Shown here: piece by piece, positions 1,031 through 60,279 of the stretch
How positions within the stretch are numbered: position 1 is the first letter of the stretch
Layout: each line of letters begins with the position of its first letter
Assembly (NCBI GenBank): GCA_036630325.1
Contig: CP142735.1
Span: forward strand, 186,001 to 250,000
Source: Vairimorpha necatrix
Lineage: Eukaryota
Direction: 5' to 3'
Length of the DNA stretch: 64,000 nt
Made by a program: the position numbers and the translations under genes
Notes under the pieces: generated by a model
What the model was told of the DNA's origin: nothing
Seen by the model: only the letters and a program-made list of their open reading frames with translations
The model's database searches: none

Positions 1031-1059
1031 TATTTATTTTATATTTTTTTTTCTTGAAA

Positions 1060-17083: not shown

Positions 17084-17271
17084 GTAACATCCAGATGATC
17101 ACGCTACAAAGCATTTCTTCGGACTAGTGCAGGTTAGGATACGAAGCTGATGATGAAAGGACTATGGAGACGAGAAGCAACCTACAAACAGGAGACGTAA
17201 CGCGGAACCTATCCTTGTTAAACTATAAATATAAATTACAATAAGCATTCCCTAATTAGATTTATTTATTT
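17084..17271 (+). mobile_element. 5'-truncated 3' end of RLE LINE family 2
   Basis: Homologous to 60016-60279 (atccagatgatcacgcta...). Flanked by the 10-bp direct repeat ttatgtcgaa (17074-17083 / 17272-17281). Confidence 0.7.
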
Positions 17272-19601
17272 TTATGTCGAAATATAACTATATCCCAACG
17301 AAATCTTATGGTAGTATAACATAGAATTTTGCGACCCAATATAGGATATTATAAAATTAGTTATAACATCTTGATCTTAAGATATCTTATGATTTTACGA
17401 AATTAAAATTACTTTTAATAAAGAATAGTTTTAGAAAAACTTACTTCTAATATATGATAATATTGGCAAACCTGTTCATGAGATGTTAAGACCACCTTCA
17501 ATTAAAACGAAATATATGTATATATATCTGATTGTTATGTTAGTATTTTTTTTTGGAGAAAATATTTTATATCTGATCGTATAATATATACTCGTTAAAT
17601 CAGTAGTAGTTCAAAAAAGTAAAAAAGGACTCAACATTTTAAACTAATATTTTTTTGTATATCTTTTATATAGAAACCTCATTAATAACAATTTCTAATA
17701 TATATATAAAGTACTTTTTTGTTTAATATTTTGTTTTCGATATTTCTAAAATTTATTCCTTTTAAATCTGTTTTAAACTAAAAGCAAATTGAGAATTAGG
17801 AATATTTAAAAATACATCCTAATTAAAAATATTCATTGTTTATAATATAGTGTTATAACACTAAATATGATAACGTTTTGAATTTTAACATTTATTTATA
17901 TCAGTATATGGAGGGACACAAAAAATTTTAGCATTCTAAAAGTTTTCCTAAATTATCTATTTAAATTCTCATAATCATAAATAATAAAACTAGAATAATC
18001 ATCAAAATATTCTTGTTTACACATATCACACAATTCATCAGACTGATGCTCTATGAATAATATTAGTAAGTAAAATTATTTAAATAGTCGAAATGTCTAA
18101 AATTGCCCTTTATTCACCGTAAAACTGTTTCTAAATAGTCTATATTTATAATTTGATCTTAATTCTAATATCCCTTTGAATAATTGAATTATTTATTCAG
18201 ATAATGGTAAACTTATATCTATAGAAGTTTTCGCATACATTCATCACAATGATTATGTAAGAATCATACTTATGTTTGATTGGCAATAATAAGGTATAAA
18301 TGCGATCATTAAAATCATTATTTTCTACGGACTAGAAATATATGACCGAAGAAACCTTATGTTTATCAATCGATAGATTATATGACTAAATTTGGGTAAA
18401 GCTAATGTAGCGGAAGAGCTTCTATTATAATTATAGTAAAAAGCTGCAATTACAATTCTTGTGACAGTCCGTGTTTTTTCACTGTTAATATAATTTTTTT
18501 TATTTTATGCTCATGATCTTATTTATCAGCAAATGATTATTATACAATTTAATACTTCGGAAATTTGAGTATACAACTGTATTCCAACTTTTCAACTTCT
18601 CGCGACACGTGGGATGCGCAAGCGCTATAAGGTCTTGTCCATTGAAGTTGGTATAACTAACGGTACTCAAATTTCTGAAGTATATAATTCGTATAATAAT
18701 CATCATATATATAAAAGAATTTTATTTAATTTTTTACCCCTCTTTTTTATGGTTTTGTAAAATCCAAACTTCTTATTACAGCTTATTATGTTATTGTATT
18801 GTCAAATTTAAACTCAATGCTTAAATTTGATAATTGTAAGTGCGTATACTATTTATTAATGCATTTTTATTCTATTTATTATTTTTGTAAAACTCAGTTC
18901 CAAAATATCGTCAGAATCGTTTTTTAGAATTTATTTAACCCTTCTAGAAAAAATTCAAAAAAACATATACCAAAAATAAGTTGAATATAAGTGTTAACAA
19001 TTTAGCTTATAAGTTCCCAAAATTATCTCATTATAATTATAAAATGTTTTTAGCTCAACTTTACTCCTTATATGTTACTAAAAAGTATTTTTCAAAATCA
19101 TGTTTTCTCCTTTTTAAATTCAGTTATCCCAAAAATGGAAACTCAACAAAATTCAAGGATCAAAGACATATTATCAAACTAAACATTTAGATCCCGTTTT
19201 CAAAACGGGAAAGCATACGCTAGTTTGCTGATAAAAAAAGATCATGAGCATAAAATATAAAGATTATTACACTAGCAGAAAAAAAATTGACTGTCTTGGA
19301 TTAGATATTGTATAATACTCTATTCTTAAAAATACTATATATTCCGCAAATTTTCATTGTCATAAAAACTTAACTTATCTCTTTTATGCACCAACCCAAT
19401 CTTTGATTTATCATTGCCCATAAACAAAAAAATTTTATTTAATATTTTAGGAGGGAAATTTAAAATAAACAAAAATTGAAAAGAGCGTAGATTTTGAATT
19501 TAAAGGATTTTAAAGCAAAAATAAAACAAATTTTTGTCATAAATTAGTTGAAAAATATACAATCAAAAACTAAACAAAAACGTTAATTAATCTTTGTTCA
19601 A

Positions 19602-25990: not shown

Positions 25991-26280
25991 ATTCAGTCTA
26001 ATGTGATGAAGAAAACTCCAGAGTCCATCTCTTTGGAACGACGAACAAGATACGATAAAGATTATGCAGAAGAAGAAGTAACTAGAGCTGTAAGCGCACT
26101 AGCAAATATGGCGACTGTTAAAGAAGTGGTGTCAGCAAAGGAGAATGAAGCTAAAAATTTGGAGTTGAAAAACATAAATAATTCCACAGAAACCAAAGTC
26201 TATGAAGAGCCGAATCTAGTGAGCGATACCGAGGGAAACTGTGCTAATCTAACTTTAATGATAAATTAACTTAATAAATC
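25991..26280 (+). mobile_element. 3' fragment of RLE LINE family 1 (continues from ~23040-23079)
   Basis: Nucleotide match to 735-1030. Sequence is contiguous across the Merlin TSD. Confidence 0.85.
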
Positions 26281-26375
26281 TTCTATATGTTGTCAACACT
26301 TCACAAAAAATTGCCGTACTTACGAATGTAGTAACGACCATGCAACTTTCGTTTAATTGTGTGACCCAACTTGAC

Positions 26376-27482: not shown

Positions 27483-28170
27483 GGTACATGACCGTTTGGA
27501 ACCCGCTTTGGGAAAATGAACCCGCTTTGAAAATAAACACGCTTTGAAAAATTCAAAAAAAGGGAAAAATAAAAAAAAGTTATAAAAAAAGGACTTGATG
27601 ATTTATTTTAAATAATGACAGAAGACAATTTATCCGTTAATTTTTGTGAATTTGAAAAGCCTAGTGAAACTGTAAAAGGTACTCATAGTGTTCTTCTTTG
27701 TTTATGTTAAGATCAAATATCTCTTATAGGAATGAGCCGAAACCAACTAAATTATATAATATTGTGACTCAGAATCGCTAGAGGTTACTGCATTTATGGA
27801 GTGATTCTTAGTACTGTGCTCCACCCCTTTGCTTAGCTAATGTGACATCATATGCTACCCATTGATTAGAGATCATATAGAAACAGGTTATACATTTTCT
27901 TGTATCACCTCAAAGAAAAAGCAGTATTCTACTAGTTACAGAAACGAGCAAGGCGCACACCAATGCAGCATCAAATGTTTCCAAAATAAACTTTTCTTTG
28001 TATTCCATGCATAAATACATTACATCACTAAAAACCTCATCTGCCTCAACAAACATTGTTTTTGCCAATTTTGCCATTTTTTTAAAGGGGGTCCTTTAAA
28101 ATTTCAAGGCGGGTTCATTTCCCCAATGCGGGTTCATTTTCCCAAAGCGGGTTCCAAACGGTCATGTACC
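27483..28170 (-). mobile_element. Non-autonomous MITE (Merlin-type ends), copy 1
   Basis: TIR ggtacatgaccgtttggaacccgctttgggaaaatgaacccgc, 8-bp TSD atatgttt. Second copy at 43598-44328. Confidence 0.92.
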
Positions 28171-31020: not shown

Positions 31021-31675
31021 GAAAATTCATATTTTAAAATCAAGGATAAAGTGATGAAAATAATTGCTTCTAAAAGCGATGATAGCTACCAAATTCAAGG
31101 AACTTCTGTTCGTGTACAATTTGATGAAACCACCATATGCAACGGGTTAATTGTATCTAATCCTTCTTCAACTTTGGATTCCATGCCTGGAATTCAATAG
31201 ATTATAGGCGGCATAGTAGAAGGTAATTGTAGAGAATTTGTTCTTGAATTGCTACCTAATCGACAATCTAGTACTATTGAAGACTTTTTTAGACGCAGAG
31301 TAAAACTTGGCTCTATTATAATTACTGATGAACACCCTTCATATCCATCAGCCTCTAGAAATTTTGGCAGTGAACATTACATAGTAAATCATTCGCTTGG
31401 ATTTATAAATGCAGAAGGAGACCACACAAATAATATAGAAAATTGGCGGTCCCATTTTAAGAATGAGTATAGATCGAGAAGTGGACTTAAAAGGCATAGG
31501 ATTAATTTAATTCTAAAATAATTTGCTTGGAAAAAAAGAAATATCAATCATTCTAATAATGATGATCATAGATGTGCCTATATAAAAATTTTAGAACTTT
31601 GTAGGTTTGAATAAATAAAATTTCTTCTAAATAATTTTTTTTTCTAGGGGGGGCAAGAAAATGAAGTAGCGCGCC

Positions 31676-32877
31676 AATTACTAGTTTGATTATCTTGCAT
31701 TCATGATAATTAAAATATTCTCAATATCTTGATTCGCACGCTCCACAATGCCTTGAGACTGGCTGTGGCGTGGCTTCCCATGCACAATTTTTAATTCAGG
31801 CCACAAACCTTTAAAATCATCAATGACGTGGTTAACAAATTCTCGAAAATTGTCCGATTTCAAAATAGATGTGCCCCAAATAGTAAAAAAAATTTAAAGG
31901 AGTTGATCAGCAACTTCATATGCTGTCTTATTTTTAAGGGATCTAATAATGATAAACTTTGTTAAGTGGTCCTGGTATACCAATATAAATTTATAATTAT
32001 CAACTAGCTGTGATTTTAAGTCAATTAAATCTACTTGACATCTTGAATTAAAATGAGAAAACACCATTGGATTAACCACCAAGCCTTTCTTTTCATTCGC
32101 CCTTTTTTTAAGGCACACTTCACAATTATTTAAAAATATTTGAATATCTTGTGCTGTTATATTTTTAAAGCGAAGGTTAAGCTCCTTTTTCATTCTGTCT
32201 CGTCCTCCATGTCCAATTGATAAATGAGTTTCATATAAAACTTCAAACAATTCTTCAACAGTAACATAATACAGCACTTTTTCATCTGCTATTGGTGCAA
32301 TTAGTTTATCCACATTACTCACATACACTGTATCATAATGTTTTAGTAACCAGAAGTGACGATTTTCTTTTTTCTGTGCTGATTTAGCGGATTTAACATC
32401 ACTTATTAGTTGAGCATATCTTTCCGTATTCATACGAAAGCCGTTAGCTTTTTGTGGAGTATTGTTAATGTGCTGGTAGAATTTATCTTTCATTGGTTGT
32501 TTATCCATTTTATTTTTAGGGTAAAATAATTAAAAATTATTAATTTCTATGGACACATATAATTTAAATAACTCACTTACCATCCAACAATCAGCCAGTG
32601 TGTACTCTCTCAAACTGCACAGATAGAGCAACATTCAACAGCACACAGTGCATCACGAATAAAGAGGTTAGGTTTAAGGTTTCCTAGCAAATTTAACGAT
32701 TTAACCTACGGATTTAACATACAACACTTTGACTAGAGGGAGCTCGTGAATGTATACATTCACTAGGTAATGTGTTCATTTCAGTTACAATGAATACTTT
32801 AACTACAAATCTTAGTGAATGTATACATTCACTAGGTAATGTATACATTGCCTGGAATGTACGTTTTGACTGTAACA
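31676..32877 (-). mobile_element. 5' half of a second copy of the Ginger2 element at 11280
   Basis: TIR and first ~145 codons near-identical to 11280-12085. Remainder diverged, with stops. Truncated at the Merlin end. Confidence 0.95.
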
Positions 32878-33156
32878 TATATACAAGAATGAGATGGAAA
32901 ATGGCAAATTTCATAAATGCTTTAAAAACAAAAAAAGATACTCAAGTTTCACTTATATAACAATAATGTGTATTTATATGCATTTTCGGCTGTTCTTAAT
33001 TTTTTCATATTTTTCAAGATTTGTCTTTTTATTGTATCTCTATTTATATATACAAGAATGAGATGGAAAATGGCAAATTTCATAAATGCTTTTAAAACAA
33101 AAAAAGATACTCAAGTTTCACTAATATAACAATAATGTGTATTTATATGGATTTTC
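32878..33156. repeat. ~169-bp tandem repeat, reverse complement of 14027-14425
   Basis: tacaagaatgagatgg recurs at 32882 and 33051. Confidence 0.9.
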
Positions 33157-33231: not shown

Positions 33232-35050
33232 TGTCAAGCGCCCAGGGCGCACGTGCGCCCAGCGCGCACAAAAACGAAGTTTTTGCCGGGTTCGAGCGCA
33301 GTGAGAACAATTTTTTTTTTCCGAAGGAAAATTAAGGAATAAAAAATAATAGATTTGTTTTACTTTAAAAAGATAATTAAATTGTTTAGATTTACAGAAG
33401 TTTTTTTTTGCATGGGAATATTTTTGATATTGGAATCTTTTTAAACTCAAGATAATATGTTGGGTTCGGGAATCCTTATAAGTAAAAGTACTGACAAAAT
33501 ATATAAACTAATTTTTTATTTTTTTAATCAAATTTAAATCTACTATAACTTCATTTCCTTCTAAATTTAACTTTACTCGATTGTTAGATAAAATTTCTAT
33601 TACTATAGACTCTTTATGATAGAAAGATTCAAGTTTTTTTTTCTTAGTTTTTTTATTATTATCAAAATCTTTTTTCAATAAAACAGTATCACCTACTTCA
33701 AAATCATAAATAGAATTGTGTACCGCGCGTCTATCCATTCGTGCAAAGTATTTTTTTTGGTAACTCGAAAATACACAGTCTTCTTTAGATTTTTCTTCCT
33801 TTTTAACACAATCGATTTCATTATCAACAGACACAGGACATATTTCTCTATCTAACTCTAAAGACACTTTATTCTCAGGTTCTAAATTTTTACGAACTAC
33901 TGTGTTGTAACCAGCTCTGTTAAACATTTTCTCAAATGGAGTAAAAGAACTCGCAGAATGAACTGCTTGATTATAAACACTAGTAACCTTTTTTAGACAA
34001 TCAATCCACCTTTCACTTCGTTCTGATGTTTCTTCGTCCATTAATTTTTTTGATAATAACCTTGTGATTGTTTGGTTAAACCGTTCCACCTGACCCTGTG
34101 TCTGTGGATGTCTAGGTCTCCCTTTTATTAGAAGGATTTTATATTTTGATGCAAGATCATACATCAATTTGTTCCTAAACTCCTTACCATTATCACTTTG
34201 AATGATCCCAGGTACACCATAATATTCAAATAAATCCTCCAAACACTCTATAACACACTCAGCTGTCTTACCTTTTAATGGATATGTTCTGGCAAATTTT
34301 GAATATACATCCAAAATAGATAATATCCAGCAATACCCATCGTTAAACTCCTTGTATGATCTCATATCAATAAGATCTATCATTAGGCGTTCCCATGGAA
34401 ATTCTGCTGTAATATGTTTCATTTTTTCCTTTGTCTTCAAAGGCTGACATTGAGCGCAAATTTTACATTCACGTACAACATCACGTATCAATTCCCTTGG
34501 GATTGAAAAATATAAACATTTACTTTTTAGGTATAGGGCATTCTGACCTAAATGCCCATCTACGTGAAGTTTTTGCATTTCTAACTTCATCGCACAAATA
34601 TCCGTTTGTGCAAAAACCTTTAAATGTAGATTGTCGATACCTCTTAAGTAAAGATGATTATCTACAATTGTAAAGTGTTCAGCCTTTTTCCTTAATCTCG
34701 CCAAAGAAAACCTCGAAATATCTTTTACGACTTTGTTTTCTACAATAATATCTAGAATATTTTTATATTCTTCCGAGTTTTTCACAGGTAAGACCATTTG
34801 AGGGATGTTATGAAATATTTTTTAAAATGGTGTTGTTTTTAACTTATTTATATTTTTAAGGTTTTTTTATAACTGAGTTTAGCTCAGCGGTCAGAAATTC
34901 TGAAACGAACTGGTCAAATTTTAAGAGGAAGGGTTCGATCCCCGCGCGAGCCATTTTTCATAAGCACCCTTAAAAAAATGAAAAATGGCTCAAAAAGCGG
35001 GAATTGGGCCGTGTGCGGGCTGGGCGCACGTGCGCCCCGCGCGCGCGACA
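33232..35050 (-). mobile_element. Ginger-like integrase DNA transposon, second short-TIR family
   Basis: TGTC..GACA ends, imperfect TIRs containing the palindrome gggcgcacgtgcgccc. No TSD match. Confidence 0.85.
33508..34797 (-). CDS. Integrase-like transposase, 429 aa, intact
   Basis: H-H-C-C finger, LMIDLID, QSDNGKEF, HPQTQGQVERFN, FEVGDTV. Confidence 0.92.
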   Translation of the reverse strand: MVLPVKNSEEYKNILDIIVENKVVKDISRFSLARLRKKAEHFTIVDNHLYLRGIDNLHLKVFAQTDICAMKLEMQKLHVDGHLGQNALYLKSKCLYFSIPRELIRDVVRECKICAQCQPLKTKEKMKHITAEFPWERLMIDLIDMRSYKEFNDGYCWILSILDVYSKFARTYPLKGKTAECVIECLEDLFEYYGVPGIIQSDNGKEFRNKLMYDLASKYKILLIKGRPRHPQTQGQVERFNQTITRLLSKKLMDEETSERSERWIDCLKKVTSVYNQAVHSASSFTPFEKMFNRAGYNTVVRKNLEPENKVSLELDREICPVSVDNEIDCVKKEEKSKEDCVFSSYQKKYFARMDRRAVHNSIYDFEVGDTVLLKKDFDNNKKTKKKKLESFYHKESIVIEILSNNRVKLNLEGNEVIVDLNLIKKIKN

Positions 35051-40886: not shown

Positions 40887-43800
40887 AATCTTCTACAACC
40901 AACATCAATTAAGAAAGTGTTATTATCAAGCGAGTCAACTACCATTCTCCGATTAAATACTTTGGAGCACCTTTTTTATTTATGCCTTCGTTCCTTATCA
41001 TCACTATTTCCCCCCTTCGAAATTGTATTCCATAGGTTTCCTTTCATGCTTAGTTTTTAATTTTAGTATTTGCAGTAATTGCGTTTTTTCAATTTCTCAG
41101 CATTTTCTTCATTACATGCTTCTGTTGGAGTCATTATAATTCCCGTGTGAAATGTGGTGTTGTATACGTGTAAAGCACGTGTTAATCCTTGTGTCAGTAG
41201 TTTTCCGGTAATATTTTTATAAATAAGATCCTGCAAAGTCCTGTTAAAACGCTCTACCCGTCATATTGATTGATGATGGAATGGCGAGGTATAATGAAGA
41301 TCAATATTCTTATCAACGCATGATTGTTTAACTGAATTCCCAAATTTTCTTTCGATTGATCTAGAATTATGTTTTTATCCTTACTTTTCATTGATCTCTT
41401 AATAAATTCTGCGACTTTTGCGGGTTTCGCGATTTAATTATCTTAGCAAATCCGTAGCTTGTAAAATAATCATTTCGGCGATTATGTATTGGTTATTAAT
41501 AGGGCCAACAATATCAATGACAACCTCCTCTCCCTTCTCGTAAGATGTTACATATAGGAATCTTCTCTTTTTTGGATTATATTTTGTACAAATAGTGCAT
41601 CTTTTTAGAAACCTTTCTTTTCACCTCTTCCACGTTTTTTCCCTTAATCTTCTTTTCTCGATTCATATTTATAGATTGTATCCCTCTATGCAAGAGCTCT
41701 TTATGGATTTGCTTTATCTGTTCTCCCATCCAAACTGTTCTTTCAACTTCATTTATCGTAGGCTGCGAATCTAATTGTAGGAGAGGACTAATTTCTGCTG
41801 AAAAATTGGCAGGGTTACGGCTCAGACAGTCTACGTGTGGGGCCTCCTTTCATTTTTTATACTTTAAATTAAAACTAAAATTCGCAATTCTCGCCAACCA
41901 TCTTTGTATTCTTAACGACTTTATTTCTCCCTAATTAAGTGCTTCTGAGGCTTTATGGTCCGTTATTACCTCAAAATCAGTACCATAAAAAGTACTCAAA
42001 ATGTTCATTGCCCCAAAGTATTGCTAGGCATTCCTTTTACTGATGCTGTATTTTATTTCCGTTTCCTCAGTCTCCTGATTGCAAAAGCTACGGCTTTATC
42101 TTCACCTTCGAACTCTTGGGATAATATCGCAGCTATCCCACTGCTTGACACATCAGTCTCTAATTTAAATCGCTTAGAAAATCTGGTTGTGTCAATTCCG
42201 TGCTATGTTTAAGTGAATTTATGAGGGCTAGGGATGTATTGTTTTCTGCTTCTCTCCAATAAACGTTTTATCGCCCTTTAACAAACCATAAGGGGGTCCG
42301 TCCGTCTATTAATGCACAATTGGCAATGAATTTTCTATAGTAATTTATCAGTCCTAGGAATTCCTGTACTTTCTTCTTATCTTTCGGAAGCTCTAGATCG
42401 TCGAGCGCCTGTGTTCGTTTTACACAAGGTAGTACTTTATTATAGGTTATTTTGTAGCCCAAAAATTTCACTTCCTCTTTTTGACTATTGATTTGTCTAT
42501 ATTGATATTCATACTATATTGTTTAAATGTATCTGTAACTCTCTTATATGCCTCGTCATGTTCTATCTCATTCCTACCAAAAACTCGAATGTCGTCCACA
42601 TAGCAATAACACGACTTACCGAGCTCACTATTCAGAACATGGTCCATATATCGTTGAAAAATAGCTGGGCTATTTTAAATCCTTGTGGCATTACTCTCCA
42701 CCCATATAGCACATGCTTGTATCGGAATGCTGTTTTGTGTCTATCTCTAACACTTAATGGTACCTGAAAAATCCGTCATTCAGGTTGATCGTAGAAAAAA
42801 AACTTCATATCTCTTAAATTGCATAATATTTCGTCGATATTTGGTAATGAATAACGATCCAGTTCAACAAGATTGTCAATGCCACTAAATTAGTCGTTAT
42901 TCTAACCTTTCCATCCGGCTTTATTACTGGTCGAAGATTATTTAACCAGGAGGATTCGACTTACATATGTATCCATTATCAATGAGTGTCTTTATAGATT
43001 TATCCGCTTCAAACTCTAGCTTTTTTGGTAAAGGGTATACCTTTTCCACAACCTTACATCCTTCTTTTGTTTTTATTTCACAAATGTATTTAAATTCATC
43101 TTTGTCCATCACCTTCTTTATCGTGTTTATCCCATCAAAATTTTCTCAGATTTAACCTTTGGGAGGACATAGAAATCGGCCGTACATTTAATGGTTTTAT
43201 ATTTAAATTCGAGTGAAACATATTGTTTGATACTAAATTGTTCTTCCAAACAGGTCCAGAATTTTATTTCTTCATTCAGTTTTTTAGGTATGAGTGATAG
43301 TCTTTGTATCGCTGAGTAACTCATAAAGTTATATTTTGCCCCAGTGTCATTTAAAACTGCAACTTTTTTGTCTTTAACGATGATAAAACTCTCTTTATTA
43401 AAAATTTCAACAATATCTTCGCTTATCTCATTGATTCTCTTGGATCTATCGGCCTCTTTTCCGTTATTTCTAACATTTTTAGGATACTTTCGACATGACC
43501 TAGCGAAATGACCCCGTCGTCCGCATTTATAACATCCTGTAGAACTAGAATTTTCGTTAATTTTCAAAGAAGTTAATCTTGCTAAAAGAGAATTTAGGGT
43601 ACATGACCGTTTGGAACCCGCTTTGGGAAAATGAACCCGCATTGGGAAAATGAACCCGCATTGGGAAAATAAACCCGCATTGAAATTTTAAAGGACCCCC
43701 TTTAAAAAAATGGCAAAATTGGCAAAAACAATGTTTGTTGAGGCAGATGAGGTTTTTAGTGATGTAATGTATTTATACGTGGAATATAAAGAAAAGTTTA

Positions 43801-44919
43801 TTTTGGAAACATTTGATGCTTAATCGGCGTGCGCCTTGCTCGTTTCTGTAACTAGTAGAATACTGCTTTTTCCTTGAGGTGATACAAGAAAATGTATAAC
43901 CTGTTTCTATATGATCTCTAATCAATGGGCAGCATATGATGTCACATTAGCTAAGCAAAGGGATGGAGCACAGTACTAAGAATCACTCCATAAATGCCGT
44001 AACCTCTGGCGATTCTGAGTCACAATATTATATAATTTAGTTGGTTTCGGCTCATTTCTATAAGAGATATTTGATCTTAACATAAACAAAGAAGAACACT
44101 ATGAGTACCTTTTACAGTTTCACTAGGCTTTTCAAATTCCCAAAAATTAACGGATAAATTGTCTTCTGTCATTATTTAAAATAAATCATCAAGTCCTTTT
44201 TTTATAACTTTTTTTTATTTTTCCCTTTTTTTAAATTTTTCAAAGCGGCGGGTTTATTTTCCCAAAGCGGGTTCATTTTCCCAATGCGGGTTCATTTTCC
44301 CAAAGCGGGTTCCAAACGGTCATGTACCGAATTTAGGTTGTTCTTCTTGTCCAATTGTTTCTCTTTTTTCTTTTCTTCTTCCATGCCATGATTTCTCTGG
44401 AGTTCCCGAGCTCCAATTGATTTAACTGACCATAGATATTTTTTTATATCGCTATTATCTGCATGCAGTCCTTCTGCGATGATGTCTACAATATCTAAAT
44501 CGCTCAACTTGTAGATACTAGCCTTTTCTTTTACCCTTTCTATAAAGGCTACAATGCCTTCGTTCTCATCCTGGTTTAATGGGTATATCTCACCCAGAGA
44601 AATCTCTTCCTTATCAAATACTTCTTTGGTGGACTCTAACCATTTTTCATATATTAGAGCGCACTTTCTTCGCGACTCTAGAAACTCCTCATACCATTCT
44701 ATAATGGCGTACTCTGCTCTTCCTATGATGTACTTAATTTCTTCTTCATCGTTTTGTTAAAAAAGAAAAACATCATTCCCAATCTTTTACATTTTTTAAA
44801 GGGGGTTTCTATTGTTATAACCATGTTTATGGGCTTTGATGTCCCATTCTCCACCATGTCAATAGATTTATTGTTGTCCTTAAAAAGTTAGGGGGTTATA
44901 AAATTTAAAATAAATATCA
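40887..44919 (-). mobile_element. Degenerate Ty3/gypsy with short (~63-bp) 5' LTR, interrupted by a MITE
   Basis: Putative LTR 44857-44919 followed by PBS tggtggagaatg. CYKCGRRGHFARSC, NDTGA protease, RT, RNase H and IN remnants. Confidence 0.88.
43598..44328 (+). mobile_element. Non-autonomous MITE, copy 2
   Basis: Same TIR as 27483, 8-bp TSD gaatttag, inverted relative to copy 1. Confidence 0.93.
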
Positions 44920-48702: not shown

Positions 48703-51159
48703 ACATTTGGGATTGTATAGGATTATTTGTAAATAAAAAAAAGTTTTAAAAAGTTTATTGTGTTTATTATTTACTTATGGAGTATTAAAATGTAGCAGGG
48801 AAAAAGCAAACTTTTGTGGCACTGAGGAAAAAATGCAGAAACAGTAGCCAGAAGCCAAACTTCAATAGTGTGTTCTCTCATTTCTTTCCCAAGAACTCTA
48901 CAGCTGTTTATTAGAGCATCATAGCTGCCAAAGACTTACTTTTAAAAAATTCTTTCATTAATAGATAGATTTTTAAGCATGCCAAGCGCAGGGAGAAAGA
49001 AAGCCGCTGAGTTCTTCTTACAAAAAGTTGGCTCACATTGAGGTTATCAGAATACAAGGGCAAAGTAAAAAAGCCGGCACTAGTAATAGCGGGAAAAAAT
49101 GAAAGCTTGTATATAATAGTGTATTTTTTCAAAAAACAAAATTCGAACAATGCTCGAATCTAGAGAAGATTATTTATAAAGCAAAACTTTAAAAATAAAA
49201 ATATATTTGAAATAATTTAGTTTGATCCCGAACACTTTTTGGCCATTTAAAAGCACGTTAAATTTTTTTTTGTATCTTTTGAATAACAATGCCATATTAA
49301 TTGCAGAAGAAATGGTGTAAGATTAATCCTTATGGAATGTCAGAGTTAGCGGATGTTTTAAACTTGTCAGTTCTTTTTTCCGAAAAGAAAAGAAGAGTAT
49401 AACATCTTTAGTTTCAAGGAAGCTTATAAAACGTTGATGCTATTGAATTTACGTCGCTCTTATAAATGTCAGTGCTTTATTAATTTTCGATCCAAGAAAA
49501 GTTTTTAGATTTGAAGCTAGTCCGTGAACTTAATCTGTCTAAAGCGATATCATCCGAAGGCTATTTTGATATTAAATAGACAATCTATATATTCAAGGAT
49601 GTTAAAAATACTAACCGACACAGATAGTATAGACATAAAAATCATAGATTTTGCCTTTTTAGATGCGGGTGCAACAGAAAACAGAAATTTGTACAAGATC
49701 AAATACAATGTAAACAAAAATATCCATTTTATTTGATTTACCATATGAAAAAAATAATAATCAAAGGTTACGATTTTTTATAGACTATCTGGTGTATCTC
49801 TCCAAATGTCAAGAACATTAAATTTTTACATTTTTTTTCATTCGAGGACATCATTATGAATTTACCAAGCTGCAAAAACACAAGATGATATTGCTTTTTA
49901 TGTTACTTTTTTAAAAGTGTGCAATCATATATACATATGTACATGATAACAATGATAAGAGAAATTATCTAGTAAAAAAACGATGCTTGGGTCCTAAAAT
50001 CGTTTACCTATCTATTTCAAATGATAACCAAACCAAAAAAGGCTTTAGGGCGTTTGCCCGTGAGTCAAATTTCAATATGCTTACAACAAAATACACACTT
50101 AAAATAGTGCAGACAATGTTTAAAAGAATGGACCACTTGAAAAGAACCAAATAGAGATAGTTAGTCAAATATAAGAGTCAAAAAACAATCTTGGATGTGT
50201 ATAGAGTCAATAAAAATATAACAACAAGCCTATGTACATGCTGGATAAAGTAGTCTTTCCTGTTTACTCCATAAAATATTAGAAACTATTAACATAGGAT
50301 GGTGTGTGAAATCGTCTCGCAAGAATATTCTATTTATATAGTCTACGGTTAGAGTTTGGCAAATAACAAAAGTGCAAAATGGGTTCACATTGTCAGCTCT
50401 TTGTTTTTTATCCTGTATTTATTGCGCAGCAAAAGTTAATTTAATCTGATCAAAAGTAAATAATACACATATGAAAAGTATATGCAACGTATTTTAATAT
50501 TATTTATATACGTTAAACATCTTTAAAAAAGTAGTAGTCGATTTAAGCCCGATTAATGAGTAAATAAAGGTTTTATTTTATATAGGTTAAATACTGAAAA
50601 AGAAAAAAACAATAATGAGTGAAGGGAGGATGCAAATTCATTTTATTGACACCGAAATATATATATATCAAACTAATTTTTGACGCCGTATTGTTATCAA
50701 GGATAATTTTTAAGTTGTAAACAACGCTATACTAAAGAGGTCCACAAAACTACCAATGCACAATAAACGATAAGAATGATTTGAGCTATTTACGAGTAGC
50801 AAGTCAAGTGATCAACTATTAAGTATGTTCATTTAATTGGAACTTTTAGAGTTTTAATTTGCTATCCGAAATTCGATGGTACTTATTACGTATCAAATTC
50901 CTAAATTGTACGTCTCGGAGAAAGACATACCTACCTACTATTAATTTCAGTATATCTTAAAAAGAGTTATTTAGAAGTTTATACCTATTTTGCTCAACTT
51001 GAAGTCTTGTGTGGATTCAATAATAACTTACTAAGAAGAGTAGAGATTACCATTATCGTCTAAAATTACATTTATGTTTGTAAATGGGTATCTGTGTCTT
51101 ATATATAAAAGTGGAGCGAAATACCTCGACAAAGCGTTTATTAATAACAAAAAAAGCCT

Positions 51160-51945
51160 TTATTTCATGTAAGTAGAAGGTAGGGAGAAACCTTACATAG
51201 GGATCAGAGGGATTTGGATGTGATCCTCATCCAAATGGACTGTGAGATTCTTACTCACTAAAACTTTTTCCATATAACCTGCAGGTGTAGTAAGCTCTGC
51301 CGTATCCATTGGACTTTGGCTCCAGGAGAACACTTTCGATTTATACCTCAAATCGCGTCCTGAGTGACCTCACAGCGGATGTACTTAACGGGCATGGTTA
51401 TCTATACCCCGAGAAGAGACATCATCGTACTGACTCAAAGATCCCTATAATCATCTGTATTGCACACACGTCTCCTTACACGGCCACATCACCAACGGCA
51501 TTTTTATTGGGCTGCGTTGACCACCAGTCTCCCACTAGTTTCGGCTACCGTGTTACAGAACCTTATAGGATAGGGACCACGAGACCTTCTATTGCCCTAC
51601 TTCGTTTGTTCTCTTAGTTAGCTCTAGGATCCCATGCTATAGTGCACCATTCATGGGCTCCAACTAGGCCGTACTCATTAGATACTTTTATGTATCATTA
51701 TGTCACCAAAGGGTGATATTGATTTTTGGCTTTGAGGTGCGTTCCTACACTAGATGCTAATCCCCTTGTTGCTGGACACACACAAGTTTCATTGAATCAA
51801 CTTAATGATTATCGTGAACATTTTCATCATCTGAGTTGTTCCAACTGCATCATAGAAAGTAGAAACAATTTTAAGCCACCTGGGAATCGAACACAGCCAT
51901 TGCTCAATGGAAGCATTGCATTCTACCACTGTGCTAAGGGCACCT
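51160..51945 (-). mobile_element. tRNA-derived SINE-like retroposon
   Basis: 13-bp TSD acaaaaaaagcct (51147-51159 / 51946-51958). tRNA-like head with A box tagcacagtgg and B box gttcgattcc at 51873-51944. Non-coding, GC-richer body. Confidence 0.8.
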
Positions 51946-53729
51946 ACAAAAAAAGCCTATGATCATACAAGCATAACTAATGAATCTAAGAGTTAATAAG
52001 ATGTAAAAAATGAGTTCTATAACCTTCTTATCGTTTTTATTCTACTTATCAAAGAGAACACATGCTTAATATAAAACAATTTTTTAGCAAAATTAAAAAT
52101 ACATCCTATGGTAAGAGAACAACGTCCACAAATCGACAATAAAGAATAAACTTGTACTGATAGCTGTCTAGTGTGTTCATTTGCTTTGTAAGATTAAATG
52201 AATATCATAACTAAATGTCATATATATTTACAGCTTATAATTATTTAAATATGCCTATAACAAAACAAAGAAGATATATATTTATTCTGTATACGATATT
52301 AAGGCTATGTTAACGTAACTGCAGTAAATTTCTAATATCTACTGATATGTAATAAATTTTAAAAAAGGCTGGTATTCCTATAATTAACACATATGAAAAA
52401 CAACTATTAATAGTGAAAATAAATAGAAACACAGGCTCTTAATGTAAAAAAGAAGATTAATTCCGAAATATACTGTATTAATACATTATGTCGGAAAGAA
52501 TAGTTAGATTTCGCCCTGTATTTGGTATTTTGGTGACAAGATACAAATAAAAATGCATAAGATATCTGGAAATCTAACTGTTTATGATGTATACATTAAT
52601 TTATTTCGCCGAAGAATAATTAGCGTCTATATTGTTCTATCGAAGAACAAAAAATGATCAGAAAATATATGAAGAAGAAATTTAAGCACAGATGTAAGTA
52701 AAGATAATAAAAGCTAAATTTCCAAAAGATTTACGTGTAAAAAAGCTGTAGCATTTTAGACCATACGAGCATAAACATTATGCATCTTTAAAAAGTGTAA
52801 AAATAAATCTCATTAATAATACCGTGATTTTTTAAGCAAAAAATTAAAATTACGCAAATTTACTTATTTAATTTACGATTCAATTGTGAACCATAAAAGC
52901 ATTTATTCTTTTTATATGATTCTGTTCATTCTTTTACGTAATAATCAAAAAATCTATGATGTTTTAGTAAAAGTTATGCTTTTATGAATACAGATTTTAA
53001 TATTCTTTTATTAAATTGGGTATATAAAAAAAGTTAAGTTTTTATAAAACTCCCAATATTTTTTTTCATGGAGGAAGCCCTCTTACAACAAAAATTGAAA
53101 ATAAATATAATTAGTTCAAAATTCTATGCGCCATAATATATTTTCTAAATTACAATAGTTTTCTAATCTAACTCAGATATAAAAAAATCTTTTTGACTGT
53201 AACATAATAGATTATAAAGTAGTTGTCCACATAAGGATCGTTTTTAAATTTGCTTAGTTCACCTAGTTTTACGCATATAAATTACTTATCTTGTACATTT
53301 TTATGTAAAGCCGTAATGTAAATCTTACTGGATTCATAAAAGGGCTAAGTTCCTTAAATTTTTTTAAATCAATCTTAAGTGTTAATTATAACGTGAATGA
53401 AACTGTATTAATTTTCATAGTCTTTTGGATTTCTCGATGCGAAAACATTGAAAATTTTTCAAAGAGAAGGAAGCTAATAAATCACGAATTAGCTTAAATT
53501 ACCAAGGCCTGCATGCCAATACTAACCATTTCAAAATATTTACCAATGAACGTAGAACTTCTACAAATCAACTGTCTTTTGGATACATTAACTTCCCAAT
53601 ATAAATATCTATCTACTTAATTTAGCCTTGTGTCGTGTACAGACGCTGATATTAAACGGAGAGATGGAAGAAAAAAAAAACCATCCCAGAATATATATAA
53701 ATGCTTAAAGAGTCGAAGGAAACATGGCA

Positions 53730-53980: not shown

Positions 53981-54801
53981 TAATGTAACTGTTAGACATA
54001 TCTAAGTTAAGGGGTATTTAATAATAAAAATATAAAATAAACAATGACATGAAAATGTCACAACAATAAGAATTGTTTAGCAATTCTACTAAAGGTTCAT
54101 GCTTTTACATTTATAAACCTATTATCAAAGTATTCTTTTGCTTGTTTGTTTATTGACGCATTGGCACATCACGGAGGACACCTTTGACTGTTGATGTTCA
54201 TGACATCTGTTATTGTGAGGTAGTTCATAACATCACACAGCTCTAGCCACCTCTTCTTCTCCTGCATCCTCTTGATCGTATCCTCGTCGTCGTTCCAAAG
54301 AGATGAACTTTAGAGTCTTCTTCATCACAATAGATTGGATGTATGCTTCCAGTTAGGGTTAGATTTCCAACTCCCTGATGTACTTTCTCTGATATTTGGT
54401 CACCCCCCAGCCCATGTTATTACATAAGGAACTATTCTTGTCCGAGATTCATGTATTAGTCCTAGTTCATTTGCAAGAAGATCATATTTTCGTAGTTTTT
54501 TTTCTCGACTATAGTAAGCCATCCTGGTTGGTTATACCAACTTCAACTTTAAATTTTCTTTTTTTTTGTCAAACACAATAATATCCGACTTATTATGGGT
54601 CTCCTTTACATTATTGGATATTCTCGTATCTATTCTTATTTCCGCACGCCCATTTTATGATCTTCTGTACTGAGTGTCCACGTATTTTTTTGTCTTCTTA
54701 AACCCATATTTAATACATAGTAAGAGATGATTGATCTAATTACCCCGTTTTGTCTTTTAATATAATCAAAACCCCACATTCAATCACACTTGGTAGCTAA
54801 A

Positions 54802-56661
54802 TGAGATGTCCCATGGGGACCTAGCCATTTTTTAAATATGCCTCTATGAGGCTTTTGTTATATTTTATATTTTTAATGTTTTTATTGTCATTATATTTAT
54901 TCTTTTGATTATAGTTATCTTTTAAATTTATCATGCCCTCCTTTCTTAAAATTTTATTTATAATTTTTTAAAACTTAAAGGGAAAATAAAATAAATAAAA
55001 TAAAATTATGTTATGAAAAGACATAACATCCTGCCTCCTCTAGAACTTCAGCTGACTTAGATGTATCCAGTCGTTGTATCCAACTAGTTTTACCCATCTT
55101 CCATTTATACCTACTTCTGAGACTTTATAGGATCCGCAATACTTTGGTTCTAATTTATTAGTAGAAGGATTTTTCCGGTAGACTTCTTTTCCACATGTCA
55201 CGATATCAGTGTCATGAACCTCTGTTCTGCTTGGTTGACTGTATTCCATTTTCTTTGATTCTAGGTCATAAAAACTTCTTTTAAATACGACTTCCCTTGG
55301 AGAGAAGCCCATCGTTGTATTGACGTTGTTATTAATTCTATGTTCAATGCTTTTAACTATACTCTTCATATCCCTTTTTTTATTCATCCTCAACATTTCG
55401 GAAATTGTCCTGTTAATTCTTTCTGACACTATGTTACTTTGTGGATGATACGCCGGTATCAGTTGTTGTATATTTCCTTGTTTCTGCAAATAATTTTTTA
55501 CTAAATGGCTTGTATACTTAGTTCCGTTATCTGAAACTACCTTTTTTGGTTTAGTAAAATGTTCTTGCCAAACTTCTAAGCATTCTATAACTTCTTGACT
55601 TCGAATTTTCTCATTAAAAAATATCTTTGTATATCTGGAAAATACATCTGTAATTGTTAGTATGAAACCTTTGGTCGAGTAGTATGCACCCTCAAACTCC
55701 TCCAAACTAAAAGGTCCATAAATGTCAGTACTAATTGTCTCAAATATTCTCTCGCTGTATATTTTCACGTTGCTGTATTTTTTCTTATTTCTCTCTTTAT
55801 TGATTAAACATTTGCTGCATTCGTGACATACTTCAGTTATATTTCGTTTGATGTTATGTACCCAGTAGTGTTTTTTTTTAATATTAAGATACATAATTAC
55901 TTCGCCGCAATGTTCAGAAATTTCGTGTATAAACTTTATAAACTCTTTTGCTTTACTTTCACTGATAATTATTCTCTGCTTATTGTCTTAGTAAGCGCTA
56001 TATATGACAATTCTCACATGAATAGCATCGTAATACTCGGTTATCGTTCGGTAGCTGATTTGTAAGATTCTAAATACCTCGCTCAAAATGTCACTGGTCC
56101 TAGCACCATATTTGATCTTAATTATATTTCTTCTAATTGTTACGCAATCTTTTGCAAAAATCTCATTATCTAATCGTGAGTCTGGGATTAAATTTTTTAA
56201 AATTAAAACTTGTTGTTCATTTGTCCAGGCATTCTGGATCGCTATTGATTCAAATTCTATGAACCAGGTTGTAATGTTCCAGTTATCTATGTTTCTTATT
56301 ATTCTTATTTTCTTGTTAAATTCCGTTTCTGTTCCTGGAATTCTAATCTTTACTTGTAAAAAGTCGTCCTCATTATCAGATTTCTTCTCCTTAAAATTGT
56401 TTTTGTTATTCTCTTTTGAATTCAAATTGAGATGTCCCATGCGGACTTGGCCATTTTTTAAATATGCCTCTATGAGGCTTTTGTTATATTTTATATTTTT
56501 AATGTTTTTATTGTCATTATATTTATTCTTTTGATTATAGTTATCTTAAAAATTTATCATGCCCTCCTTTCTTAAAATTTTATTTATAATTTTTTAAAAA
56601 ACTTGGAGGGAAAATAAAATAAATAAAATAAAATTATGTTATGTTATGAAAAGACATAACA
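54802..56661 (-). mobile_element. Non-autonomous LTR retrotransposon (partial gag plus integrase only)
   Basis: ~230-bp LTRs 54802-55028 and 56428-56661, 5-bp TSD ctaaa, PPT gaggaggcagga. ORFs 55988-56440 (gag-like) and 55040-55894 (integrase). Confidence 0.92.
55040..55894 (-). CDS. Gypsy-type integrase
   Basis: CSKC, STDIYGP, SDNGTKY, YHPQSNIVSER. Confidence 0.85.
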   Translation of the reverse strand: MYLNIKKKHYWVHNIKRNITEVCHECSKCLINKERNKKKYSNVKIYSERIFETISTDIYGPFSLEEFEGAYYSTKGFILTITDVFSRYTKIFFNEKIRSQEVIECLEVWQEHFTKPKKVVSDNGTKYTSHLVKNYLQKQGNIQQLIPAYHPQSNIVSERINRTISEMLRMNKKRDMKSIVKSIEHRINNNVNTTMGFSPREVVFKRSFYDLESKKMEYSQPSRTEVHDTDIVTCGKEVYRKNPSTNKLEPKYCGSYKVSEVGINGRWVKLVGYNDWIHLSQLKF

Positions 56662-59600
56662 CTAAATGATCGTCGAACTATCTATGAGATCCAAAATGAA
56701 GACATTGTCGCTCTTGTCCACAGAAAATATTTCTATCCTGTCGAAGCAGTAAATTGCTTCAGATCTAGCCTAATTGTTTCCTTTAATCAGCTAGGTAGAA
56801 GAGTCCATAATGCTTACTAAATAATTGTCCCTAGCTTTAAACAACTTTCCATGGTTTGTTCTTATGTCAATTTTGCTGTAAAGCGCTTCTTTTTGGGATT
56901 CTATTATCATCTTCTGGGGTATATCTCCTACACAGCTGTACCCAATCCTGAGATACTCGTTAATTGTAAACAAGTTGGATTTGCTCTCTGCCTCTACTTT
57001 AAGTATCTCTGCCCGTCTTAGTGAGCTATTTCTAGGCCCATCTAATATTTTATAAATATTCAAAAGCATACTTTCGCTTCTATCTTTGAAACTTATGAGG
57101 ATTCTTCCCATTTCAGATCTAGGAAGGTATAGTCTTTCCTCGCAGGCTGGCTGTAGATGGACCTGGTACTTAATAAGATTTGTCGGGTATCAAAATCGAG
57201 ACTTTTGAAATCTATTGGTTCAATTTAGGAAGTCCTACATAATGTTTTATTACTGATATTGCATGTTAATTAGGAGTTCAAATTATATTCTTACAATTTA
57301 ATAGGGTCTTGCACAGTTTTTCAATCCTCTATAGATCTCATTTCTTACTTTTTCAAAAGTCTCTCTTCTGACAGCACTAGAGGCATCCTTTGTTATTCCA
57401 GGGTATTTGCATTCTTGATGTTCTTCTATTATTACTCCATCTTCACTAACAATTGGTTGCAGATATACACCTGTTCATTCCTAACCCTACGGCCGAGAAA
57501 CCCTTTTTAGTTTCCTCATTCATCAGTTTCAGAACGTGTCGTTCTCTGCGAGGAGCTTAATATCATTAATAAATAAAAGACAGTTAGTTACATTAACGCT
57601 TTCGTGGCTCTGTATCTCTACTTTTGGTCAAATTGAATTCAGTTTTTCTGCTCAGCGGGTCCATACATAGTACAAAAAAGCGAAAACAAAGAATCACCTT
57701 GTAATATGCATCTTATAATCTTCTTATTCAGTATTGTTTCCAAATCTGATTTTCTCTCAATCTGTCACCTTTTAACCGTAACTTTAAGAATTTACTAATA
57801 AAAATTTTATAGAAAATTATATTAAAAATATTATCGAGAAGCATTTACTCGCCGGGAAGGTTAGGGCGGGCATTATATCTAGTTTTAGTTTGCGTTTGTT
57901 ATATATGATTATAACTTTAAAAATAAAAATCTTGAATTAACATTTTGTTCTTGCATATATAACCAACATGTGATAATCCGCATTTTACTATTACATATTT
58001 AGAAAGGCCGCCAATGTTATAGAAAGCAAAAGAAAAAATATTTTTATTGAGATTTTATTAATTTCATACATCTAGCTGATGTCTTTATGAGGAATAAATG
58101 TTATGTCAATTGTTTTATATTTTTTTAAAAAGTTGTATCAGTCTTTTAAAAAATTCTACTAATTTTGTTTACAACCGTCAATCATCTCAGCATTAATTAC
58201 GAAGAATCTAAACTATTACACGAGTAGCTCGACCCATTAAATCAAAAAATGCTTTAAAACAATATATTCTTGTCTAAATCGAAAAATTATAAGAAGTTTA
58301 TTTTTTCTACAATTGTTTATGTCGCCCCAAAAGAAATAATTTGCTAATTGAACCGTTTTTGATCCTTTTGTTTATAGCGTTGGTTTACGGAAAACTCTTT
58401 GCTTCGTTTATAAAGTAAATATGTTTAACCTCTTAAAAGAGTTCTCTATATCCGAATGCATTTATTTTTCTTCATAAGGAAGCCCATTGCAATTTATGAT
58501 ATATATATATATATATATATATGTTGATTGATTAAGCTCAGTATAACATTATGAAGATGAAGACCATTATTTCTAATATAATGGTAAAATAAAGGATTAA
58601 TGATGGAGAATTTGCTCTATAATTCTCAACAAGGCAAAAAAAAAAAAATATAGTTCAATGCAATATGTGTTTTTTAGAAACGAACTGCACAAATACACAA
58701 TTCTAAAGAAAAAATCGACTAATTGTGAGGAACAACTTTTTATTTCGAAAGTTTTGGGATGTAGATAGAATAAAAGCCACCAGGTGGCCGAAATACCAAA
58801 GAGAGCAGACACACAACAAAAAATAAACTTAGCATGATTATGTAGAAACAAAAATAAAAATTCAGATTTATTTTATATATCACTTAGTCCCAATACCAAA
58901 ATTGCACATATGGTTTCTCCTTCACGTTAGAGTGAAATACCAAAAATCAATTTAAAATCTATAAAAAATGTTTCAATCTGAAAGAATACATACTATTTTT
59001 GTTAGTTTAAATGACAATGCGCAGTCTCCGGAGGAAAGGCGCAAGATAGATGCAGAAAGCTCTGATCTTCGATAAAAGATTATTATATGCTAGAATGAAA
59101 GGTTCGTCGCCTATTCACTTATATGTGAACTACATAGAAATAATGTATAAAAATGTATTTTCTTATTTAATTTCAAGAAAAAAGGATAGATAAAAACATA
59201 CGCTCATAAATTCATCATGAATAATTAGCGCATAGTAATCGTTATTTTTTAGTGTTAAAGTATGTGATATATTAGTTTTTGTACTAGTGTTGATAATTTT
59301 CTGGTATTTTACATGCAAGTTTTTTAGATAAAAAAACCATAAACGTATTTAGTAAAAATATTTGAATTTCTAAACAATCACAATGTCTAGAAATTTATAT
59401 TTTTTTTTAAAATAGGGGTTCCTTATTCATAAAATATAGATTGGCTGTTACTTCTATTGTTTTTTTGGTTGTAAGCTTTAACACCGACTATATTATATCA
59501 TATACTGGTTCAAATAATTTTTTATAAATACGAGTTTTAATATTTTATGGGTTTTTTTGTATGTCAGACACTAATGCTCCAGATAAAACTTATTGAGATT

Positions 59601-60015
59601 TTTAATTAAAGTATCTATGGAATACATCGGACAGAAACAAAAAGCCCCATGTTACACCTTTGTAACTTAGTCTATTTGTAATTTGTTTAAAATAGAAAAT
59701 ATCAAATATATGTAAAAACGATAATCATCATATAAACGGTCTCCTGATACGACGGTTTCTTCGTTAACTTTGATTTTGGAGGAATTGCAAAATATTTACT
59801 AATATTTGGAACGTAAAACATAATTTATCACGTTAAATGTCGATCATCTTAACATTTTGTCATAATCCATGAAGTTAATAAAAAAAACTGTTTTGTGAAT
59901 TAAATATATATATATACATATATATATATATACTTGAATTCGATGTCCTTTGGACGAACCGGGCTTAATAAATGGTTTTAAAACATAAATAATTTACTAA
60001 GTAATCACTTGAAAT

Positions 60016-60279
60016 TTATAGTGACTTTGTTTCACAAATCATATAGCACAAGACTTGAAATCCCTAAGAATAGAAACGTAATCCAGATGATCACGCTAAA
60101 GAAGACGCTAGAGAGCGTTTTTATGGACTACCGAAGGAGAGAAGATGAAGCCGATGTGGAAAGGGCCATTAAGACTAGAAACTACCACAAGAATGAGACG
60201 CTACCGCGAAACTTATCCTTGAAAAACTAGAAATATAAACTACATGTAGCATACTACAATTAAATTTATTTTTATATAT
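60016..60279 (+). mobile_element. 3' fragment of RLE LINE family 2
   Basis: VTLFHK..IQMITLKKTLESV resembles the family 1 C-terminus. Possible 7-bp TSD ttgaaat. Confidence 0.7.

What the first reader, a model, noticed from the sequence alone, without database searches (positions are those of the whole stretch)
51147..51958. Long tRNA-headed SINE with perfect 13-bp TSD
Seen: a 786-bp insertion between acaaaaaaagcct repeats. On the minus strand it starts with a degenerate tRNA (Gly-TCC-like; A and B boxes intact, broken stems), followed by ~700 bp of non-coding GC-richer body. A 9-bp stem-loop (atttggatg-7-catccaaat, 51212-51236) lies near its 3' end. The tail does not match either LINE family in this window. 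Inference: a Pol III retroposon, a class I do not know to be well described in microsporidia. It could be host-derived or a retroposed structured RNA.
Basis: partly seen in the sequence, partly recalled or inferred. Interest (0 to 1): 0.7.

Follow-up and report, generated by a model that had tools for sequence, protein, structure and literature searches.

The report
Microsporidian SINE with LINE-derived tail
This is one worn copy of a real, recently active family of about 780-base jumping elements (a SINE) in a microsporidian parasite; it starts with a tRNA look-alike and ends with a piece taken from a rare reverse-transcriptase element of the same genome, a familiar arrangement that appears not to have been described in this group.

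Summary
Window 51160-51945 (minus strand) lies between exact 13-bp repeats and belongs to a family of at least about 150 copies. Copies carry A-tails and 11-17-bp duplications; some are 5'-truncated; a young subfamily is 99.5-100% identical. A paralogous empty site exists for this very insertion. The last ~165 bases derive from the 3' end of a rare APE-RT LINE elsewhere in the genome ('LINE-D'): 75 of 83 copies hit its tail, none hits four other LINE tails. LINE-D's nearest relatives are microsporidian and fungal, which argues against a host origin. Corrections: the head reads CAT, not Gly-TCC, and no donor tRNA can be assigned; the 9-bp hairpin is perfect in only 2 of 83 copies; the body shows no excess folding. 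No intact LINE-D was found, so what moves the young copies is open. The scan noted this family before on other pieces of this genome; the listed notes did not name this tail donor. Verdict: an ordinary tRNA-SINE/LINE pair, new for microsporidia as far as my searches reach.

The parts
51946..51958 (+). Target-site duplication at the element's 5' side (acaaaaaaagcct)
   Evidence: one copy of the target at the empty paralogue L255
51147..51159 (+). Target-site duplication at the element's 3' side
51160..51945 (-). The SINE copy, 786 bp; an older member, 92.9% identical to the majority sequence of the younger copies, 55 substitutions, mostly G>A and C>T
51873..51944 (-). tRNA-like head, 72 nt, CAT at the anticodon position (51907-51909); the 3' acceptor strand and T-stem are decayed in this copy and intact in most younger copies
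   Evidence: (perfect 7-bp acceptor stem in 29 of 39 copies above 93% identity to the young copy)
51926..51936 (-). Pol III A box (TAGCACAGTGG)
   Evidence: sequence, compared with the genome's tRNA genes
51883..51892 (-). Pol III B box (GTTCGATTCC)
   Evidence: sequence
51330..51872 (-). Central body, about 540 nt, non-coding, origin unknown, no excess folding
51239..51329 (-). Block homologous to the last ~15 codons of LINE-D ORF2 and the start of its 3' UTR (74% over 91 nt in this copy; 79%, 75 of 95 nt, in a young copy)
51168..51238 (-). Terminal ~70 nt, same length and position as the end of the LINE-D 3' UTR but diverged in sequence; holds the 51212-51236 hairpin, which is perfect only in this and one other copy
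51160..51167 (-). Decayed A-rich tail (TGAAATAA); runs of 17-26 A in the 11 young copies
50542..52700 (.). Flanking DNA, an old duplicated stretch whose paralogue on contig C3 lacks the insertion (empty site)

Best explanation
It is a tRNA-derived SINE with three parts: a tRNA-like head that supplies an internal Pol III promoter, a ~540-nt body of unknown origin, and a ~165-nt tail captured from the 3' end of an APE-RT LINE (LINE-D: end of ORF2, 3' UTR, A-tail). Mechanism: Pol III reads through the element (inferred); the LINE-like tail is bound by a LINE ORF2 protein (inferred from the stringent SINE/LINE model); the endonuclease nicks A/T-rich DNA with little sequence preference and the RNA is copied by target-primed reverse transcription from the A-tail (products shown: variable duplications, A-tails, 5' truncations, empty sites). 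LINE-D lineage as tail donor: shown by homology, about 0.9. LINE-D as the enzyme source for most of the family's history: inferred, about 0.75; for the youngest burst about 0.55. The window copy is an old, decayed insertion.
For: Copy number: 151 tail 22-mer matches with up to 3 mismatches, control 0; 86 exact head 12-mers, control 7. Duplications of 11-17 bp in 29 of 45 copies, null 25 of 1980. 5'-truncated copies with tail and duplication, one only 82 bp long (L136, L139, L140, L147). Empty site of the window insertion and a young copy inserted in the B box of an older copy with a duplication (L161). Tail homology: element positions 617-711 match L197 at 75 of 95 nt, E 2e-16 in a database of 20 loci; 75 of 83 copies hit the LINE-D tail and 0 of 83 hit the tails of LINE-A, its sister family or two R4-type families. 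Read in frame the block gives FSWSQSPMDTAELAAP against VSWSQSSMSTAELVAP-stop in LINE-D and FSWSQSPMGMAELDAP in the V. ceranae relative P0002. LINE-D is the only one of the LINE families examined that ends in poly(A); a 348-bp LINE-D copy has a ~14-bp duplication. LINE-D and young SINE tails are each predicted to fold into the same four-way junction (z -1.8 to -2.8). The young copy's sense strand has a single T4 and no longer T run, whereas 57 of 60 genomic 779-mers have T5 or more.
Against: Only four LINE-D copies were found and none is whole: the best (L197) has an open 1092-codon frame but starts inside the endonuclease domain, and no 5' part was found, yet 11 SINE copies are 99.5-100% identical with long tails. 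The last ~70 nt of the two tails have no significant sequence match. The alignment fold of 11 tails recovers only two hairpins at -3.9 kcal/mol and not the closing stem, and 11 of the 13 SINE tails and 2 of the 4 LINE-D tails folded have z weaker than -2. The lack of long T runs is what composition alone gives in 553 of 1000 shuffles, and 13 of 65 tRNA gene records have only T4 downstream, so the internal T4 could terminate. No transcript start or polymerase was measured.
Confidence: 0.85

Rival explanations
1. Same SINE, but the present driver is another LINE: LINE-A (about ten intact 1242-codon ORF2 copies) or an R4-type element copies it in trans, and the LINE-D tail is a relic.
For: LINE-A has many open, 95-100% identical ORF2 copies and one R4-type copy has an open 1199-codon frame, while no whole LINE-D was found. 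R4-type copies also leave 11-15-bp duplications (read by eye), so duplication length does not decide.
Against: LINE-A ends in T-rich tails and the R4-type families in TTTTAT or TATATA, the SINE in poly(A); no sequence match between their tails and any of 83 copies; local alignment to the LINE-A UTR scored 36.5, below the shuffle mean of 47.9. An intact LINE-D could lie on an unassembled homologue.
Confidence: 0.2
2. The element was acquired from an insect host.
For: Host-to-parasite transfer of other transposons is reported in microsporidia (passages of PMC4202319 and PMC3614468). The element is GC-richer than its surroundings. The origin of the central body is unknown.
Against: Copies run continuously from 100% down to about 60% identity, so the family is old in this lineage. 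Microsporidian non-LTR elements were found monophyletic in PMC3486916 (passage).
Confidence: 0.07
3. It is a functional structured RNA (a real tRNA-Met plus a large ncRNA) that was copied passively.
For: The head keeps a cloverleaf in most copies and folds better than shuffles (z -2.1, -2.7); a young head scores 28.6 bits on the mascRNA model and an older one 26.6 on tRNA, both under cut-off.
Against: No Rfam match at cut-off; body windows give z from -1.3 to +2.0; none of the 63 scored tRNA-model matches is a family head and the genome has its own three Met-CAT genes, unlike the head; the 3' part is a LINE fragment.
Confidence: 0.05
4. Solo LTR, MITE or segmental duplication.
For: The window is rich in Ty3/gypsy and DNA transposons; a few copies share flanks, so some spread by duplication.
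Against: Duplications vary from 11 to 17 bp, the ends are asymmetric (tRNA head, A-tail), truncation is at the 5' side, and the element has no other match in the 64-kb window.
Confidence: 0.01

Closest known systems
Mg-SINE with MGL/MGR583 (Magnaporthe) and SINE2-1_BG with Tad1-24_BG (Blumeria): fungal tRNA-SINE/LINE pairs with a shared 3' end (table rows of PMC3747384)
   Same: tRNA head, LINE-derived 3' end, about 100-200 copies; Mg-SINE is described as able to fold a cloverleaf (passage of PMC5063351).
   Different: Longer (779 against 472 bp); the donor is an APE-RT LINE of a lineage shared with Smittium and other microsporidia whose clade I did not determine; the shared block includes ORF2 codons, and the last 70 nt have diverged. 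No sequence comparison with these families was possible.
Long fungal SINEs mgsr1 (800 bp), Egr1 (700 bp), EGH24 (900 bp), Foxy (passage of PMC5063351)
   Same: Length range and copy number; so 780 bp is long but has precedent in fungi.
   Different: Different phylum; sequences not compared.
Stringent-type SINE/LINE pairs in general (58 pairs listed in PMC3747384, passages)
   Same: Common 3' tail, predicted stem-loops at the 3' end, poly(A) allowed (SART1 precedent in the same passage).
   Different: Here the tails are only 74-79% alike over 95 nt and the donor has no intact copy in the assembly; stringent recognition is untested.
Unnamed 'SINE' fraction of Nosema bombycis (0.18% of the genome, one table row in PMC3614468)
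   Same: Shows that automated annotation has labelled SINEs in a relative.
   Different: No family, head or partner is described in the passages seen; whether it is this family is unknown.

Membership tests
tRNA-derived SINE (SINE2) | Interspersed multi-copy, non-coding element | tested here: met
   no long sense-strand frame; the 107-codon antisense frame has no Pfam match
tRNA-derived SINE (SINE2) | 5' tRNA-related head with A and B boxes | tested here: met
tRNA-derived SINE (SINE2) | A-rich or simple-repeat tail and variable-length target duplications | tested here: met
tRNA-derived SINE (SINE2) | Marks of target-primed reverse transcription (5' truncation, empty sites) | tested here: met
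tRNA-derived SINE (SINE2) | Transcribed by RNA polymerase III | not testable with these tools
   only contigs were available; T-run test inconclusive
Stringent SINE/LINE pair | 3' end homologous to the 3' end of a LINE in the same genome | tested here: met
Stringent SINE/LINE pair | Conserved 3' stem-loop structure with covariation | tested here: inconclusive
   same topology in single-sequence folds of the best copies; weak alignment fold
Stringent SINE/LINE pair | An intact, active partner LINE present | tested here: inconclusive
   four partial LINE-D copies, none whole; searches score only best candidates and missed R4 fragments of the window (against 97)
Stringent SINE/LINE pair | Retrotransposition depends on the shared tail | not testable with these tools
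   needs an assay
tRNA-Gly-derived head | TCC anticodon and closest similarity to tRNA-Gly | tested here: not met
   CAT in the fold; best matches Ala(TGC) for older heads and Leu(CAA) for the young head among 54 distinct genomic tRNA sequences, which lack His, Tyr and Val
Functional tRNA-Met gene | tRNA covariance score over cut-off and likeness to genomic tRNA-Met | tested here: not met
   26.6 bits against 29 for L002, no tRNA match for L018 or the window copy; not near the three Met-CAT genes
SINE superfamilies with a shared central domain (CORE, V, Deu, Nin and others; names recalled) | Conserved central domain | not testable with these tools
   no SINE library is held
Solo LTR / MITE | Fixed short duplication, symmetric ends | tested here: not met

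The most novel reading that the evidence does not exclude
The family has outlived its donor: its youngest burst (11 copies at 99.5-100%) followed a swap to a tRNA-Leu-like promoter head and is driven either by a different, T-tailed LINE or by a truncated LINE-D protein, recognising a four-way RNA junction that has been kept while its sequence turned over; the RNA may be abundant, with a processable tRNA-like head bearing a CAU loop. That would make it a natural case of SINE partner switching and promoter exchange inside a reduced parasite genome.
Probability: 0.15. Interest if true: 0.65.

Novelty: new member of a known kind. Interest (0 to 1): 0.45.

Why it matters
It gives microsporidia a defined SINE family with a named tail donor, which I did not find described in nine literature searches. 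It shows that the reduced Pol III system of these parasites can carry a 780-nt selfish transcript (inferred), and that the element arose from resident parts rather than from the host. Practical points: default ARAGORN of 29 copies tRNA-Met genes, so tRNA counts in such genomes can be inflated; young insertions are likely strain markers. It does not reveal a new kind of system.

Tried and rejected
Rfam on the window copy, two better copies and the LINE-D tail: nothing at cut-off. PF14529 search of the genome: 0 of 21 candidates; PF03372 then found LINE-A. LINE-A, its sister family and two R4-type families as tail donors: no match. Looking for a LINE behind the SINE's own tail motif: all 38 loci fetched around tail hits aligned to the SINE (L150 over 38 nt only); only 100 of 151 hits were listed and I fetched part of those. 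Search for the 5' part of LINE-D: none. Metagenome scan with the shared 27-nt motif: 3 contigs, matching only the motif, with no further SINE or LINE homology; treated as chance or unexplained. Structured body: rejected. The 9-bp hairpin as a family feature: rejected. Gly-TCC origin: rejected; no donor assigned. T-run depletion as proof of Pol III: not significant against shuffles. No joint across the whole insertion was listed in the four runs laid (13 further joints not shown). An early reading that the window holds no LINE was wrong: one search found R4-type fragments that searches missed. Look-ups of earlier findings by sequence returned nothing.
Full report
Observation. The 786 bp between two exact copies of acaaaaaaagcct (51147-51159, 51946-51958) are as described. 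The window lies on contig C10 of a 15.0-Mb, 12-contig genome. A LINE protein of this genome is 100% identical to a database protein labelled Vairimorpha necatrix, so the microsporidian setting is right. The window itself is a field of Ty3/gypsy, Merlin-like and Tc1-like remains with fragments of two R4-type LINE families.

It is a family. The element found 39 other near-full-length copies at 89-92% among 40 scored of 338 candidates. An exact head 12-mer occurs 86 times (control 7) and a tail 22-mer with up to 3 mismatches 151 times (control 0), so about 150 copies, or 0.8% of the genome, is a lower bound. Of 45 distinct full-length copies, 29 have an exact target duplication of 11-17 bp; mismatched flank pairs give 25 of 1980. 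The target has little preference: a pyrimidine before the duplication in 25 of 29 and A or T at its first base in 25 of 29. Copies truncated at positions 37, 51, 78 and 698 keep tail and duplication. Among 83 copies collected from the loci fetched, identity to a young copy runs from 100% to about 60%. Eleven copies are 99.5-100% identical with A runs of 17-26; 28 older ones have mostly 7-15. The window copy is 92.9% identical to the majority sequence and has a decayed tail and acceptor stem.

Empty sites. The left flank has one paralogue (2 of 2 candidates scored), on C3. There the left flank (72% over 632 nt) runs directly into the right flank (74% over 768 nt) with one copy of the target. 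A young copy also sits inside the B box of an older copy with a duplication (L161). In run X2 a 342-nt contig crosses the head-side junction with 14 differences, so the insertion is shared with a diverged isolate.

The head. ARAGORN finds nothing in the window copy at default, calls tRNA-Met(CAT) in 27 of 29 other copies, and folds the window copy as a possible pseudogene with CAT. Rfam gives at most 26.6 bits on tRNA, under the cut-off of 29. Against 54 distinct genomic tRNA sequences (His, Tyr and Val missing from my set) older heads are nearest Ala(TGC) and the young head Leu(CAA), with small margins; Gly and Met are not near. The donor cannot be assigned. Fourteen of the 22 differences that mark the young subfamily lie in the 72-nt head: its body is 98-99% like the next-youngest copies and its head 83-85%, and parts of that head occur in older copies. 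I infer a head exchange.

The body. Positions 73-616 have no Rfam match, no long frame and fold no better than shuffles (130-nt windows, z -1.3 to +2.0, two copies; only the head window reaches -2.1 and -2.7). Its origin is unknown.

The tail donor. I collected the genome's non-LTR elements: LINE-A (APE-RT, ORF2 1242 codons, many intact copies, T-rich tail), a decayed sister family, R4-type families (one open 1199-codon frame, tails TTTTAT or TATATA), and a rare APE-RT family, LINE-D (L197, G000:C6 near 721-724 kb). SINE positions 617-711 match the LINE-D 3' end at 75 of 95 nt (E 2e-16, 20 loci); for the window copy 51239-51329 matches at 74% (E 1.6e-8). Of 83 copies, 75 hit the LINE-D tail and none the four other tails tested. 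The block spans the last ~15 codons of ORF2 and the start of the UTR: the SINE reads FSWSQSPMDTAELAAP, LINE-D VSWSQSSMSTAELVAP-stop, and the 78%-identical V. ceranae protein P0002 FSWSQSPMGMAELDAP. Both then run about 67 nt to a poly(A) tail. The capture therefore came from an older member of the LINE-D lineage (inference). Named relatives of LINE-D are Vairimorpha, Smittium, Nematocida, Cucumispora, Amphiamblys, chytrids and algae; no insect is named among 120 listed hits, most unnamed. An RNA run of another coded organism (X19) holds short pieces of the shared block and of the body; by eye the loose ends of one piece read like a LINE-D relative and of another like a diverged SINE, a hint that the pair exists in a second species.

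Tail structure. Folded singly, LINE-D (L197) and two good SINE copies give the same topology: a closing stem from just after the stop codon to just before the A-tail, enclosing a GUGAG/CUCAC hairpin, a long irregular hairpin and a 3-bp hairpin (z -1.8 to -2.8). The older LINE-D copy L249 keeps the closing stem with a changed sequence (z -2.5). Against this, the other 11 SINE tails and two LINE-D tails tested are weaker than z -2, and the alignment fold of 11 tails gives only two hairpins at -3.9 kcal/mol. The fold is a prediction, not a result.

Mechanism. Shown: insertion by target-primed reverse transcription and a LINE-D-derived 3' end. Inferred: Pol III transcription from the A and B boxes (these motifs are reported for all Nosema tRNA genes in a passage of PMC5499648), recognition of the tail by ORF2. 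The sense strand has one T4 and no longer run, compatible with read-through but expected in 553 of 1000 shuffles, and 13 of 65 tRNA records have only T4 downstream. The open problem is the current driver: four LINE-D copies were found (3.4 kb with an open frame but starting inside the endonuclease domain; 2.0 kb at 95%; 348 bp at 92%; 346 bp at 80%) and no 5' part. An intact copy may be missing from the assembly, or another LINE may have taken over.

Comparison with what is known. It works like, and by the features tested is, a tRNA-derived SINE with a LINE tail, as Mg-SINE/MGL and SINE2-1_BG/Tad1 (table rows of PMC3747384). Fungal SINEs of 700-900 bp are known (passage of PMC5063351). For microsporidia I saw: no occurrence of 'SINE' in the main text of PMC4202319, PMC3486916 and PMC5499648, none of 'short interspersed' in PMC7313128; a table row 'SINE 0.18%' for N. 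bombycis in PMC3614468; SINEs absent in Microsporidia MB (PMC11585130); SINE as a mere category in PMC13702014; 16 tRNA pseudogenes in N. apis (PMC3726280). Of each paper I saw only the passages returned. Nine searches listed no description of such a family. I read no supplements; repeat libraries there, and Repbase, Dfam or SINEBase, may already hold it. Earlier notes of this scan record long tRNA-headed SINEs on other pieces of this genome (77 notes fit, 8 shown; 8 of 13 shown); those shown did not name LINE-D.

Verdict. Real, well supported, an ordinary kind of element; new for the group as far as searched, with the tail donor identified. Interest 0.45.

Noticed in passing
L161:840-2438 (G000:C9 near 791,400) and L160:1005-1166: A young SINE inserted into the B box of an older copy; elsewhere two extra heads stand in tandem before a full copy.
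   Followed up: partly
L177-L184, L193, L194 (e.g. G000:C6 700-724 kb): LINE-A forms head-to-tail clusters of full and truncated copies with T-rich tails and at least ten open 1242-codon ORF2 frames; the best LINE-D copy sits inside such a cluster.
   Followed up: partly
L183, L184, L193, L197:5160-5600: Short non-coding elements that begin GGTGCAGATCTCT and end in the LINE-A 3' UTR occur in the LINE-A clusters; possibly a second non-autonomous family dependent on LINE-A.
   Followed up: no
window 259-1037, 25991-26290, 54237-54804, 56662-57799, 17101-17273, 59942-60271: Fragments of two R4-type (restriction-like endonuclease) LINE families; weaker pieces at 48950-49106 and 50043-50213.
   Followed up: partly
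L138, L151, L155: The same ~1.2-kb element with G-rich inverted ends (about 91% identical) interrupts or abuts three different SINE copies.
   Followed up: no
L256, L257, L258: Three metagenome contigs hold the 27-nt hairpin motif of the SINE/LINE-D tail with no other homology.
   Followed up: partly
window 51140-51979, run X1: Summed contig depth on the element is thousands of times that of the flanks and higher at the 3' half; library type not on record, so either abundant RNA or DNA of a relative lacking these flanks.
   Followed up: no
window 34875-34960 (+): An isolated tRNA-like stretch with A- and B-box-like motifs next to a Ty3/gypsy gag region; not called by ARAGORN.
   Followed up: no
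window 27499-28154 and 43633-44328; 11273-12482 and 31674-32884: Pairs of 96%-identical repeats in inverted orientation within the window.
   Followed up: no
L006/L011/L118, L025/L103, L125/L126, L129/L130, L142/L158: Several SINE copies share flanks, so some were multiplied by duplication or inside other repeats rather than by new insertion.
   Followed up: no
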